Shown here: piece by piece, positions 7,761 through 11,424 of the stretch | How positions within the stretch are numbered: position 1 is the first letter of the stretch | How the letters are laid out: every line of letters starts with the position of its first letter | Assembly (NCBI RefSeq): GCF_050320075.1 | Contig: NZ_CP190018.1 | Direction: 5' to 3' (one strand) | DNA from: Escherichia coli | GTDB taxonomy: Bacteria > Pseudomonadota > Gammaproteobacteria > Enterobacterales > Enterobacteriaceae | Length of the DNA stretch: 64,000 bases | Notes under the pieces: generated by a model | Database searches by the model: none | What the model was told of the DNA's origin: nothing | Seen by the model: the letters and a program-made list of their open reading frames with translations, nothing else | Position numbers and translations under genes: made by a program

Positions 7761-8998
7761 AATGTAGCTGGCGCGAAGGCAATAAGATCCAGTTGCTGGA
7801 AAACGGCGAGCAATATTATCCCGCGGTGTTTAAGGCGATTGGCGAGGCACAAGAACGCATCATTCTTGAAACGTTTATCTGGTTTGAGGATGACGTCGGC
7901 AAACAACTGCATGCGGCACTACTGGCAGCAGCGCAACGCGGGGTAAAAGCGGAAGTCTTACTTGATGGCTACGGTTCGCCGGATCTCAGCGATGAGTTTG
8001 TCAATGAACTGACGGCCGCTGGCGTGGTGTTCCGCTACTACGATCCCCGCCCTCGCCTTTTTGGTATGCGCACCAATGTGTTTCGCCGGATGCATCGCAA
8101 AATTGTGGTGATCGACGCGCATATCGCCTTTATTGGCGGGCTGAATTACTCCGCCGAGCATATGTCCAGCTACGGTCCAGAGGCTAAACAGGATTACGCG
8201 GTGCGCCTTGAAGGGCCGATTGTCGAAGATATTCTGCAATTTGAACTGGAAAACCTGCCAGGACAGAGCGCGGCACGACGCTGGTGGCGACGTCATCACA
8301 AAGCGGAAGAGAACCGCCAGCCGGGAGAAGCGCAGGTATTGCTGGTCTGGCGCGATAACGAAGAACATCGCGATGATATTGAACGTCACTATCTGAAAAT
8401 GCTCACTCAGGCACGGCGGGAAGTGATTATCGCCAACGCCTACTTCTTCCCCGGCTATCGATTTTTACACGCCTTGCGTAAAGCGGCACGGCGCGGGGTG
8501 CGGATCAAACTGATCATTCAGGGCGAACCGGATATGCCGATTGTCAGAGTCGGCGCGCGCTTGCTGTATAACTATCTGGTTAAAGGCGGCGTTCAGGTTT
8601 TTGAGTATCGCCGCCGCCCGCTCCACGGCAAAGTGGCGTTGATGGACGATCACTGGGCGACGGTAGGGTCCAGTAATCTCGATCCGCTCAGTTTGTCACT
8701 GAATCTCGAAGCAAATGTCATCATCCACGATCGTCATTTTAACCAGACGCTGCGCGATAATCTGAACGGCATTATCGCCGCAGACTGCCAGCAGGTGGAT
8801 GAAACCATGCTGCCGAAACGCACCTGGTGGAATCTGACCAAAAGCGTGCTGGCCTTCCACTTTTTACGCCACTTCCCGGCGCTGGTCGGCTGGCTTCCGG
8901 CACACACACCACGTCTGGCGCAGGTTGACCCGCCCGCTCAGCCGACAATGGAAACGCAGGATCGGGTAGAAACTGAAAACACGGGGGTAAAACCCTGA
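7757..8998 (+). CDS. clsB: cardiolipin synthase B (phospholipase D family)
   Basis: 413 aa with two HKD motifs ([18 protein letters not shown] and [18 protein letters not shown]); start overlaps ybhP stop. Confidence 0.92.
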
Positions 8999-9954
8999 TG
9001 AGTAAATCACACCCACGCTGGCGCTTAGCAAAGAAGATCCTCACCTGGCTGTTTTTTATCGCGGTGATAGTGTTGCTGGTGGTCTACGCCAAAAAGGTGG
9101 ACTGGGAAGAGGTCTGGAAGGTCATCCGCGACTACAATCGCGTTGCGTTGCTCAGTGCGGTCGGGCTGGTGGTCGTCAGTTATCTGATTTACGGCTGCTA
9201 TGATCTGCTCGCCCGCTTTTACTGCGGTCACAAACTGGCGAAGCGCCAGGTGATGCTGGTGTCGTTTATCTGCTACGCCTTCAACCTGACGCTCAGTACC
9301 TGGGTCGGCGGCATTGGTATGCGCTATCGTTTGTACTCCCGGCTAGGGTTACCGGGCAGCACTATTACGCGGATTTTCTCGCTCAGTATTACCACCAACT
9401 GGCTGGGCTATATTTTACTGGCAGGGATTATCTTTACCGCAGGCGTGGTGGAGTTGCCGGATCACTGGTATGTCGATCAAACCACGCTGCGTATTCTCGG
9501 CATTGGCTTATTGATGATTATCGCGGTTTATTTGTGGTTTTGCGCTTTCGCGAAGCACCGCCATATGACCATCAAAGGACAAAAGCTGGTGCTGCCTTCA
9601 TGGAAATTTGCCCTCGCCCAGATGCTGATTTCCAGCGTTAACTGGATGGTAATGGGGGCGATTATCTGGCTGTTACTTGGTCAAAGCGTGAACTATTTCT
9701 TTGTACTGGGCGTGTTACTGGTTAGTAGTATTGCTGGCGTCATCGTGCATATTCCGGCGGGGATTGGTGTGCTGGAAGCGGTATTTATCGCGCTACTGGC
9801 TGGGGAGCATACCTCGAAAGGGAGCATTATCGCCGCCCTGCTCGCTTATCGCGTCCTGTATTACTTTATCCCGCTGCTGCTGGCGCTGATCTGTTACCTG
9901 CTACTGGAAAGCCAGGCGAAGAAGCTACGAGCGAAAAATGAAGCGGCGATGTGA
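8998..9954 (+). CDS. ybhN: inner membrane protein YbhN (lysylphosphatidylglycerol-synthase-like TM domain family)
   Basis: 318 aa polytopic membrane protein, ATGA overlap with clsB stop. Confidence 0.88.
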   Translation: MSKSHPRWRLAKKILTWLFFIAVIVLLVVYAKKVDWEEVWKVIRDYNRVALLSAVGLVVVSYLIYGCYDLLARFYCGHKLAKRQVMLVSFICYAFNLTLSTWVGGIGMRYRLYSRLGLPGSTITRIFSLSITTNWLGYILLAGIIFTAGVVELPDHWYVDQTTLRILGIGLLMIIAVYLWFCAFAKHRHMTIKGQKLVLPSWKFALAQMLISSVNWMVMGAIIWLLLGQSVNYFFVLGVLLVSSIAGVIVHIPAGIGVLEAVFIALLAGEHTSKGSIIAALLAYRVLYYFIPLLLALICYLLLESQAKKLRAKNEAAM

Positions 9955-9989
9955 AGTTTAGTTAAGTTCTTTAGTATGTGCATTTACGA

Positions 9990-10406
9990 CTAATGAAAAA
10001 AACGCGTATGCCTTTGCCAGACAAGCGTTATAGCTATCGCGGCAAGTATCCCAAAGAAGCCGATAAAATAGTAATAGAGTGTTAATGCACCTGTAAAAGC
10101 GCAACGAACCGGACTCCACAACTCTTCGCTATGGCATTTTCCTGCCAGTTCAAGGAGCTTATTTCGTCCATGCGAGATAATGCCTGACCATAACACTATC
10201 ATTAAGCAACTTATTACCCAAACGGGTCGTTCACTCATTAATGCGGCATCCATGATGATCACCAGGGCCAGCTCTGCGGTTGCCACCATACCCAAAGCGG
10301 TAATGAGCCATATACCGTTTAATATCCTGGCCTCGTGCTGAAAATCTAATTTATTGCTGTTTTGCGAGTATGATTCCATTCTTTTAGTTGTCCTTAGAAA
10401 AAACAT
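9990..10406 (-). CDS. hypothetical small polytopic membrane protein in the ybhM position
   Basis: 138-aa ORF, AT-rich codon usage, 3-4 hydrophobic segments; sits between ybhN and ybhL where K-12 has ybhM; identity to YbhM not confirmed. Confidence 0.5.
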   Translation of the reverse strand: MFFLRTTKRMESYSQNSNKLDFQHEARILNGIWLITALGMVATAELALVIIMDAALMSERPVWVISCLMIVLWSGIISHGRNKLLELAGKCHSEELWSPVRCAFTGALTLYYYFIGFFGILAAIAITLVWQRHTRFFH

Positions 10407-10583
10407 TAATATTCACCATCAATAAATTTAAAACCACGCATACAAAATATTTTTGTATTTATGGATACGGAAAACACTTCCGCTCGGCCATAAGGCATAT
10501 TTTATACCTGGTACTTGTTAAGTGTCGTTTTTAGTAAGAAAAAAATCCCGACACATGGCCGGGATATTGATGGTGAAAAAGAA

Positions 10584-11288
10584 TTAACGGCGGTTGCCGA
10601 AGATCCGCAACAACATCAGGAACAAGTTGATGAAGTCCAGATACAAGGTTAACGCGCCAAGAATGGAATATTTGCGCAGGTTCGACGTGTCGCGGGTATC
10701 AATCTGCTCACCCATATTTTTCAATTTCTGAGTGTCATACGCCGTCAATCCGACAAAGACAATCACGCCGATGTAGGTAACTGCCCACATCAATGCTTCG
10801 CTTTTCAGCCAGAAGTTGACCAGCGATGCCAGCACAATGCCGATTAACGCCATAAACAGCATATTGCCAAAGCCGCTTAGATCGCGCTTCGTGGTGTAAC
10901 CGTACAGGCTCATTGCGCCAAACATCCCGGCAGTAACGACGAAAGTACTGGCGATAGAAGCAGCGGTATAGACAATGAAAATACTGGAAAGCGTAAGACC
11001 CGTCAGCGCCGAATAAAGCATAAAGAGCATCGTCGTTACACCTGCGCTCAGCTTTTGAATCATCGCTGATAACACAATAACCAATGCTAATTGCGCGATG
11101 ATCAGACCGATTAAAAAGACACGGTTAGTGAACAACAGCTCCATCACGGCCGCGGAATTAGCCGCATACCAGGCAACAAATGCGGTCAGCAACAAGCCAA
11201 CGGTCATCCAGCCATAGACTTGCGCCATATAAGTTTGCAAGCCAGCCCGGGGTTGTACAATTGAATCAGAACGTGGGAATCTGTCCAT
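10584..11288 (-). CDS. ybhL: Bax-inhibitor-1 family inner membrane protein YbhL
   Basis: ORF 10584..11369; 234-aa product from internal Met MDRFPRSDSIVQPRAGLQTYMAQVYGWM, seven hydrophobic segments. Confidence 0.88.
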   Translation of the reverse strand: MDRFPRSDSIVQPRAGLQTYMAQVYGWMTVGLLLTAFVAWYAANSAAVMELLFTNRVFLIGLIIAQLALVIVLSAMIQKLSAGVTTMLFMLYSALTGLTLSSIFIVYTAASIASTFVVTAGMFGAMSLYGYTTKRDLSGFGNMLFMALIGIVLASLVNFWLKSEALMWAVTYIGVIVFVGLTAYDTQKLKNMGEQIDTRDTSNLRKYSILGALTLYLDFINLFLMLLRIFGNRR

Positions 11289-11424
11289 GACGATCTCCTG
11301 AAGATATAAGGAATATCTTAAGGATACTGCAAAATGATGAGGCTGTGCATCGACGCAGCGTAAACGCATGTACTGAGCGGTGAAATTGCCGGACGCAGCG
11401 GTGCCTTATCCGGCTAACAAAAAA

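What the first reader, a model, noticed from the sequence alone, without database searches (positions are those of the whole stretch)
9955..10583. Short, AT-rich gene in the ybhM slot
Only about 630 bp separate ybhN and ybhL, holding a 138-aa AT-rich membrane-protein ORF. From memory the K-12 ybhM gene is considerably longer, so this strain may carry a truncated, replaced or differently annotated gene here. I am not certain of the K-12 length, so treat this as a prompt for comparison.
Basis: inference. Interest (0 to 1): 0.2.

Follow-up and report, generated by a model that had tools for sequence, protein, structure and literature searches.

The report
Common internal-deletion allele of ybhM
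The short gene between ybhN and ybhL is E. coli ybhM with an in-frame 324-bp internal deletion, a natural variant found in roughly one complete E. coli genome in ten; it probably disables a dispensable, uncharacterised membrane protein, so it is ordinary.

Summary
ybhN ends at 9954 and ybhL ends at 10584, so 629 bp lie between them. That interval holds a minus-strand ORF, 9990..10406 (138 aa). The conserved start is at 10379, which gives 129 aa, the length RefSeq annotates. GC is 39.7% in the interval and 51.1% in the whole window.

K-12 ybhM is 237 aa. The window gene is the same gene (95% protein identity on the retained parts) minus 324 bp, or 108 codons, in frame. The deletion lies between two imperfect 11-bp direct repeats. 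It removes predicted helices 2-4 and fuses helix 1 to helix 5, leaving 3 of the 7 helices of a Bax-inhibitor-1/YccA-type protein. The remnant scores below Pfam's Bax1-I threshold.

The exact junction occurs in 467 of 5,426 complete E. coli genomes, and up to 107 more carry it in another haplotype. RefSeq already annotates it (WP_000446922.1). The promoter, ribosome-binding site and reading frame are intact.

The most likely reading is an old, nearly neutral loss-of-function allele of a dispensable gene, spread by recombination. IS insertions, a frameshift and near-complete absence at this locus in other strains fit that reading. Interest is low.

The parts
9990..10379 (-). ybhM deletion allele, 129-aa CDS (stop codon 9990-9992; conserved start ATG 10379-10377)
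   Evidence: identical to RefSeq WP_000446922.1; aligns to K-12 YbhM residues 1-~36 and ~145-237 at 95% identity
10380..10406 (-). In-frame upstream extension that makes the mechanical 138-aa ORF. Its ATG at 10406 is a strain-polymorphic SNP and is probably not the real start.
   Evidence: ATG in the window, NRZ14408 and SE15; ATA in K-12, Q65, AR_0067 and 23CRST046
10266..10276 (-). Deletion junction: one hybrid copy (coding strand CAGAGCTGGCC) of the two 11-bp imperfect direct repeats that lie 324 bp apart in full-length ybhM. The crossover is within TGGCC (plus strand 10266-10270).
   Evidence: full-length alleles have CAGG(A/G)CT(A/G)GCC upstream and CAGG(G/T)TTGGCC downstream; every short allele sampled keeps the upstream-type C followed by downstream sequence
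10391..10395 (-). Shine-Dalgarno-like AAGGA, 11 nt upstream of the conserved ATG
   Evidence: read directly from the sequence; AAGGA in most alleles compared (AR_0067/PEC011 have AGGGA and CUVET17-1418 has GAGGA)
10501..10528 (-). ybhM promoter, -35 ACGACA (10528..10523), 16-nt spacer, -10 TATAAA (10506..10501), intact in the window
   Evidence: The sequence matches the constitutive sigma-70 promoter ACGACA-16-TATAAA listed for the ybhL-ybhM spacer, flagged H-NS, in PMC3946193. The scan finds the same -35 hexamer.
10545..10565 (-). Intrinsic-terminator-like hairpin plus T-run just downstream of ybhL. It separates ybhL from the ybhM promoter.

Best explanation
The gene in the slot is ybhM, a Bax-inhibitor-1/YccA (TMBIM) family inner-membrane paralogue of ybhL, carrying a 324-bp (108-codon) in-frame internal deletion. 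The deletion arose by illegitimate recombination or replication slippage between two imperfect 11-bp direct repeats (CAGGRCTRGCC ... CAGGKTTGGCC), both of which encode a Gly-Leu-Ala motif. It removes the end of helix 1, all of helices 2, 3 and 4, and the start of helix 5. What remains is a 129-aa protein with three predicted helices: a helix 1/5 hybrid, helix 6 and helix 7. Helices 1 and 5 cross the membrane in the same direction, so the topology of helices 6-7 would be preserved. The seven-helix bundle cannot form, however, and in BsYetJ helix 2 is the gating helix. The allele is therefore most likely a loss-of-function remnant that can still be expressed, since its promoter, ribosome-binding site and frame are intact. 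It persists as an old, effectively neutral polymorphism because ybhM is dispensable. It is identical by descent in most carriers and has been moved between backgrounds by homologous recombination. Shown: the deletion, its endpoints and repeats, its frequency, the loss of helices 2-4 (predicted), and the Pfam score falling below threshold. Inferred: loss of function, neutrality, the slippage mechanism and a single origin.
For: Deletion and its endpoints:
- K-12 ybhM is 237 aa, against 129 aa here. A single 324-bp gap sits in otherwise 96% identical DNA.
- The direct repeats flank the deleted block in every full-length allele examined, and a hybrid repeat sits at the junction in every short allele.

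Protein consequences:
- The AlphaFold2 model of K-12 YbhM has 7 helices: 2-43, 54-76, 79-100, 103-127, 134-154, 159-192 and 198-235 (pLDDT 78, pTM 0.76). The short protein has 3 helices: 3-48, 53-84 and 90-128. Hydropathy agrees.
- Pfam Bax1-I scores K-12 YbhM at 75.1 bits over profile positions 3-205. The short protein scores 30.4 bits, below the cut-off of 34.1, and covers only positions 127-205.

Frequency:
- The junction 80-mer is in 467 of 5,426 genomes.
- A second-haplotype junction is in 107 genomes.
- The deleted segment is present in 4,734 of 5,426 genomes.

Dispensability:
- IS200C or IS2 sits in the spacer of several strains, and one short allele is frameshifted.
- IS1 lies in or next to ybhM in several genomes, and IS5 interrupts ybhM in RR1/HB101 (PMC5379014).
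- Some genomes match almost none of the interval (H30).

Identity by descent:
- The short alleles of the window, NRZ14408 and Q65 have identical ybhL DNA (0 of 705 differences), while their ybhN differs at 22-29 of 957 sites.
- Full-length strains differ from the window at 9-44 ybhL sites.
- All sampled junctions resolve on the same side of the repeat mismatch.
Against: - No expression or phenotype data exist for either allele, and the function of full-length YbhM is itself unknown.
- The ORF has stayed open in nearly all carriers. In the 85 C-terminal codons the short alleles show 8 synonymous and 0 nonsynonymous segregating sites, which looks like purifying selection. However, 6 of those 8 sites are also polymorphic in full-length alleles and may have been imported by recombination.
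- All six nonsynonymous segregating sites among the 8 intact short alleles compared fall in codons 28-44, around the junction. This could mean adaptation of the fused helix rather than neutrality.
- Short alleles differ from each other at up to 20 of 390 nt, and all four combinations of residues 31 and 36 exist. Recurrent deletion at the repeats is therefore not excluded.
Confidence: 0.75

Rival explanations
1. The short allele is a maintained, functional three-helix mini-protein, sub- or neo-functionalised. It might modulate YbhL, YccA or FtsH, or form a new oligomer, with the fused helix adapted by amino-acid changes.
For: - The promoter, Shine-Dalgarno sequence and frame are intact.
- The fusion preserves topology, because helices 1 and 5 have the same orientation.
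- The C-terminal 85 codons show 0 nonsynonymous and 8 synonymous segregating sites.
- All six nonsynonymous sites cluster in codons 28-44 around the junction. They include G36E and N44D, which place two acidic residues in the hybrid helix of the window's allele.
Against: - Most of the synonymous diversity is shared with full-length alleles, so it can be imported rather than filtered in place.
- Some carriers have an IS element in the promoter region or a frameshift.
- A wider sample of the protein cluster shows scattered singleton changes and truncations in the C-terminal part.
- The sample is only 4-7 haplotypes.
- Helices 2-4 of the fold are gone.
Confidence: 0.1
2. The same 324-bp deletion has arisen repeatedly, a slippage hotspot at the 11-bp repeats, in different full-length haplotypes. 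It did not arise once and spread by recombination.
For: - Short alleles span most of the locus diversity, differing at up to 20 of 390 nt.
- The P0006 type differs from the full-length 23CRST046 allele at only 7 of 390 nt (3 upstream and 4 downstream of the junction).
- The P0004 type differs from other short alleles on both sides of the junction.
- No SNP is private to all short alleles.
Against: - A ybhL-side haplotype is shared among three short-allele groups, identical over 705 bp, despite divergent ybhN.
- L31M is shared by three groups and absent from all 8 full-length alleles sampled.
- Every junction resolves on the same side of the repeat mismatch.
- The exact homology is only 4-5 bp, which makes a poor hotspot.
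Confidence: 0.15
3. The slot holds a different, foreign AT-rich gene that replaced ybhM, or the short gene is an assembly or annotation artefact.
Against: - The retained DNA is 96% identical to K-12 ybhM, in the same place and orientation.
- K-12 ybhM is equally AT-rich, at 0.423.
- The junction is in at least 467 independent complete genomes.
Confidence: 0.01

Closest known systems
E. coli K-12 YbhM (b0787, WP_000446911.1, 237 aa), an uncharacterised Bax inhibitor-1/YccA family inner-membrane protein
   Same: Same locus between ybhN and ybhL, same strand, same promoter and start codon. The 129 retained residues are 95% identical.
   Different: About residues 37-144 are missing: helices 2-4 and parts of helices 1 and 5. 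The result is 3 predicted helices instead of 7, and the Pfam Bax1-I score falls below the gathering threshold.
The same short allele as already catalogued: RefSeq WP_000446922.1, with sister variants WP_000446924.1, WP_001522650.1 and WP_001589933.1; GenBank EFJ82071.1 (138-aa call in E. coli MS 69-1)
   Same: The 129-aa sequence is identical to WP_000446922.1. It is annotated 'Bax inhibitor 1 family protein' or 'hypothetical protein'.
   Different: Nothing, except that some sources call the longer 138-aa ORF.
Bacillus subtilis YetJ (BsYetJ, PDB 4PGR/4PGS), the structural prototype of the TMBIM/BI-1 family: a pH-gated Ca2+ leak channel
   Same: The parent protein YbhM shares the seven-helix family profile and gives a modest fold match. 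The remnant keeps the equivalents of TMD6 and TMD7.
   Different: The remnant lacks TMD2-4, and TMD2 is the gating helix (PMC4416878). Both full-length YbhM and the remnant lack the Asp171/Asp195 sensor pair and have Gly and Tyr at those positions. YbhL keeps both aspartates.
E. coli YbhL (adjacent paralogue) and the third BI-1 paralogue (WP_001299026.1) found between ybhM and ybhL in IAI1, D6 and MB52
   Same: Same family and same gene array.
   Different: Only 22-28% identical to YbhM. Both are full-length seven-helix proteins. The third paralogue is absent from the window and from K-12.

Membership tests
ybhM (orthologous allele of the E. coli K-12 gene) | Same chromosomal position and orientation between ybhN and ybhL, with high nucleotide identity | tested here: met
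   96.3% DNA identity to K-12 over all 629 bp, in two collinear pieces flanking one 324-bp gap
ybhM (orthologous allele of the E. coli K-12 gene) | Full-length 237-aa product | tested here: not met
   129 aa (138 aa by the longest ORF); 108 codons are deleted in frame
Bax inhibitor-1 / YccA (TMBIM) family, Pfam PF01027 Bax1-I | Whole-protein score at or above Pfam's gathering threshold (34.1 bits) | tested here: not met
   the short protein scores 30.4 bits (E 4.3e-7) and matches only profile positions 127-205 of 207; K-12 YbhM scores 75.1 bits and YbhL 212.1 bits
Bax inhibitor-1 / YccA (TMBIM) family, Pfam PF01027 Bax1-I | Seven transmembrane helices with helix 7 at the core (BsYetJ architecture) | tested here: not met
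Bax inhibitor-1 / YccA (TMBIM) family, Pfam PF01027 Bax1-I | Di-aspartyl pH sensor (BsYetJ Asp171/Asp195) and its arginine partner in helix 2 | tested here: not met
   YbhM has Gly and Tyr at the two Asp positions in both the full-length and short forms; the helix-2 region is deleted here; YbhL retains both Asp
Bax inhibitor-1 / YccA (TMBIM) family, Pfam PF01027 Bax1-I | Ion-leak or FtsH-modulating activity | not testable with these tools
   No functional data for YbhM turned up in the literature searches

The most novel reading that the evidence does not exclude
The 129-aa remnant is not a dead gene. It would be a selectively maintained three-helix membrane mini-protein whose fused helix has been tuned by substitutions (L31M, G36E, A38V, N44D). 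It might act, for example, as a modulator or dominant-negative partner of the intact paralogues YbhL/YccA in D-group lineages such as the ST38-like lineage of the window.
Probability: 0.08. Interest if true: 0.35.

Novelty: already known. Interest (0 to 1): 0.1.

Why it matters
It matters little. For annotation, the 129/138-aa 'hypothetical protein' or 'Bax inhibitor 1 family protein' in this slot is better labelled as an internally deleted ybhM allele, and ybhM belongs among the frequently inactivated, dispensable E. coli genes. The junction could serve as a simple presence/absence marker for certain lineages. The window's own haplotype is shared by ST38-like genomes. A maintained function for the remnant would be a small example of a membrane protein reshaped by a topology-preserving deletion, but the evidence for that is weak.

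Tried and rejected
- **phmmer of K-12 YbhM against PDB sequences** found nothing. A profile of the paralogues found YetJ only weakly, at E 0.0085.
- **NCBIfam** has no model that hits the short protein, K-12 YbhM or the third paralogue.
- **Literature**: 'ybhM' occurs in 11 papers, none about function or this deletion. 'ybhL + yccA + Bax inhibitor' returned nothing.
- **K-12 ybhM as a chimera** of the third paralogue and ybhM by unequal crossing-over: rejected. The third paralogue is only about 27% identical and its N-terminus differs.
- **A diagnostic SNP shared by all short alleles**, which would prove a single origin: none found.
- **Phylogroup of the carriers** could not be assigned with these tools. 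The only clue is a named 'ST38' genome among the 100% matches to the window.
- **Exact number of carriers** is known only as a range of 467-574, because the two junction searches may overlap.

Full report
**1. What is in the sequence**

ybhN (plus strand, 8998-9954) and ybhL (minus strand; RefSeq-equivalent CDS 10584-11288) are separated by 629 bp, at 9955-10583. Gene order around the slot is ybhP-clsB-ybhN on the plus strand, then the short gene, ybhL, moaE, moaD and moaC on the minus strand. This is the K-12 order.

The interval holds one sizeable ORF on the minus strand, 9990..10406, of 138 aa. Its first ATG exists only because of a SNP. The window, NRZ14408, SE15 and some others read ATG there, while K-12, Q65, AR_0067 and 23CRST046 read ATA. 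The conserved start is the ATG at 10379, preceded by AAGGA at 10395..10391. It gives 129 aa, which is what RefSeq annotates in genomes identical to the window (WP_000446922.1, 'Bax inhibitor 1 family protein').

GC is 0.397 for the interval, 0.444 for the CDS and 0.328 for the upstream spacer. The whole window is 0.511.

**2. Comparison with K-12**

In K-12 the same interval is 953 bp and ybhM is 714 bp / 237 aa. Aligning the two intervals gives 96% identity, interrupted by a single 324-bp gap in the window. At the protein level, residues 1 to about 36 and about 145 to 237 of K-12 YbhM are retained at 95% identity, and 108 residues are missing in frame.

The long form is ancestral, for three reasons:
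- It covers the whole Pfam Bax1-I profile, positions 3-205 of 207.
- Both paralogues in the array (YbhL and a third gene in some strains) contain the segment.
- 4,734 of 5,426 complete genomes have the segment.

K-12 ybhM is as AT-rich (GC 0.423) as the remnant, so the composition is inherited and is not a sign of a foreign replacement.

**3. How the deletion arose**

On the coding strand, full-length alleles carry CAGG(A/G)CT(A/G)GCC, encoding Gly-Leu-Ala at the end of helix 1. Exactly 324 bp downstream they carry CAGG(G/T)TTGGCC, encoding Gly-Leu-Ala in helix 5. Every short allele examined has one hybrid copy (window: CAGAGCTGGCC, plus strand 10266-10276), with the upstream-type C followed by downstream sequence. 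This places the crossover in the shared TGGCC.

This is the signature of RecA-independent short-homology deletion, that is, replication slippage or illegitimate recombination. That assignment is an inference from the anatomy of the junction.

**4. Consequence for the protein**

The deletion runs from inside helix 1 to inside helix 5. The short protein is predicted to have three helices: 3-48, 53-84 and 90-128. Helices 1 and 5 have the same orientation, so the hybrid helix would keep helices 6 and 7 in their native topology. Helices 2-4 are gone, however.

In BsYetJ, helix 7 sits at the core of the seven-helix bundle, and helix 2, which carries Arg60, moves to open the channel (PMC4416878). The remnant scores 30.4 bits on Pfam Bax1-I, below the 34.1-bit threshold, and matches only profile positions 127-205.

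The inference is that whatever full-length YbhM does, the remnant cannot do it in the same way. The function of YbhM itself is unknown, and no functional paper was found. Even the full-length protein lacks the two aspartates of the BsYetJ pH sensor, which YbhL retains.

**5. Expression signals**

The sigma-70 promoter reported for the ybhL-ybhM spacer, ACGACA-16-TATAAA, flagged as H-NS associated in PMC3946193, is intact at 10528..10501 on the minus strand. The ybhL terminator hairpin lies at 10565..10545. The Shine-Dalgarno sequence and start codon are unchanged. Nothing in the sequence prevents expression of the remnant.

**6. Population picture**

| Measure | Result |
|---|---|
| 80-bp probe across the window's junction | 467 of 5,426 complete genomes, always one copy, always chromosomal |
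| Junction of a diverged short haplotype (P0004 type) | 107 genomes, some possibly overlapping the 467 |
| Carriers overall | 8.6-10.6% |
| Genomes lacking the deleted 324-bp segment | 692 |

The first 25 kb of the window are 100% identical to a group of genomes that includes one named 'strain ST38'.

Short alleles are diverse. They differ at up to 20 of 390 nt, and they sit next to ybhN alleles that differ at up to 37 of 957 sites. On the ybhL side, however, the window, NRZ14408 and Q65 types are identical (0 of 705), while full-length strains differ from the window at 9-44 sites. L31M is shared by three short-allele groups and by none of the eight full-length alleles sampled. All junctions resolve on the same side of the repeat mismatch.

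Together these points favour one old deletion that has since recombined into different backgrounds. Repeated origin at the same repeats is not excluded, because no SNP is private to all short alleles and all four combinations of residues 31 and 36 exist.

**7. Selection**

Among the eight intact short alleles compared at this step there are 16 segregating sites:
- Six are nonsynonymous, and all six lie in codons 28-44 around the junction: A28S, L31M, A33T, G36E, A38V and N44D.
- Ten are synonymous.
- The 85 C-terminal codons carry 8 synonymous and 0 nonsynonymous sites.

This pattern is suggestive of constraint plus local adaptation, but it is weak evidence. Six of the eight C-terminal synonymous sites are also polymorphic in full-length alleles and can have been imported by recombination. 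Only 4-7 haplotypes were sampled. A wider sample of the protein cluster shows scattered singleton substitutions and C-terminal truncations or extensions.

Other observations point to a dispensable locus:
- IS200C or IS2 in the ybhM-ybhL spacer of several short-allele carriers, one of which also has a frameshift.
- IS1 in or next to ybhM in several genomes.
- IS5 in ybhM of the laboratory strain RR1/HB101 (PMC5379014).
- Genomes that match almost none of the interval (H30).

**8. Verdict**

The gene is a shortened ybhM, not a replaced one. It is a common natural allele, already annotated, of an uncharacterised and evidently dispensable paralogue in a copy-number-variable array of Bax-inhibitor-1 family genes.

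The best-supported explanation (confidence about 0.75) is an old short-homology deletion that inactivates the protein while leaving an expressible three-helix remnant. The allele would be maintained by drift and shuffled by recombination. The most novel reading that the evidence leaves open is that the remnant is a maintained mini-protein with an adapted fusion helix; I give it a probability of about 0.08.

- Novelty: already known.
- Interest: 0.1.

Noticed in passing
L016:2774-3478 (IAI1), L013:3104-3808 (D6), L014:3104-3808 (MB52); absent from window 10380-10583: Some E. coli carry a third Bax-inhibitor-1-family gene (234 aa, WP_001299026.1, about 27% identical to both YbhM and YbhL) between ybhM and ybhL. 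In those strains ybhM has a different N-terminus (MNSRSANNITN...). The slot is therefore a copy-number-variable array of BI-1 paralogues: three genes, two genes (K-12), ybhL plus a deleted ybhM (the window), or ybhM absent.
   Followed up: partly
window 9990-10379 (-); K-12 L001:1536-2249: YbhM, in both full-length and short forms, lacks both aspartates of the BsYetJ Asp171/Asp195 pH sensor. It reads IISHGRNKL and LYYYFIG, where the adjacent paralogue YbhL has AYDTQKL and LYLDFIN. Even intact YbhM is therefore an atypical family member.
   Followed up: partly
L007:2920-3378, L008:2920-3378 (IS200C); L004:2795-4023 (IS2) and L004:2261-2651 (frameshift): Several strains with the short allele have an IS200C or IS2 element inserted in the ybhM-ybhL spacer, the promoter region. 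One of them also has a 1-nt insertion that frameshifts the short ORF. IS1 insertions in or beside ybhM occur in other genomes, and IS5 interrupts ybhM in RR1/HB101 (PMC5379014).
   Followed up: partly
window 1-25000: This stretch is 100% identical to a set of complete genomes that includes one named 'strain ST38' and a series of RIVM_C03xxxx human isolates. Only 134 of 5,426 genomes are at least 99% identical. The window probably comes from an ST38-like lineage.
   Followed up: no
window 10584-11369 (-): The mechanical ORF for ybhL is 261 aa (ATG at 11369), but RefSeq annotates 234 aa (705 bp, 10584-11288) in identical genomes. The longer ORF is an upstream in-frame extension.
   Followed up: no
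window 10266-10310 (-), codons 28-44 of the short CDS: All six nonsynonymous polymorphisms among the 8 intact short alleles compared lie within 17 codons around the deletion junction. The window's allele carries G36E and N44D, which put two acidic residues eight positions apart in the hybrid helix. NRZ14408 also has both, on a different N-terminal background.
   Followed up: partly
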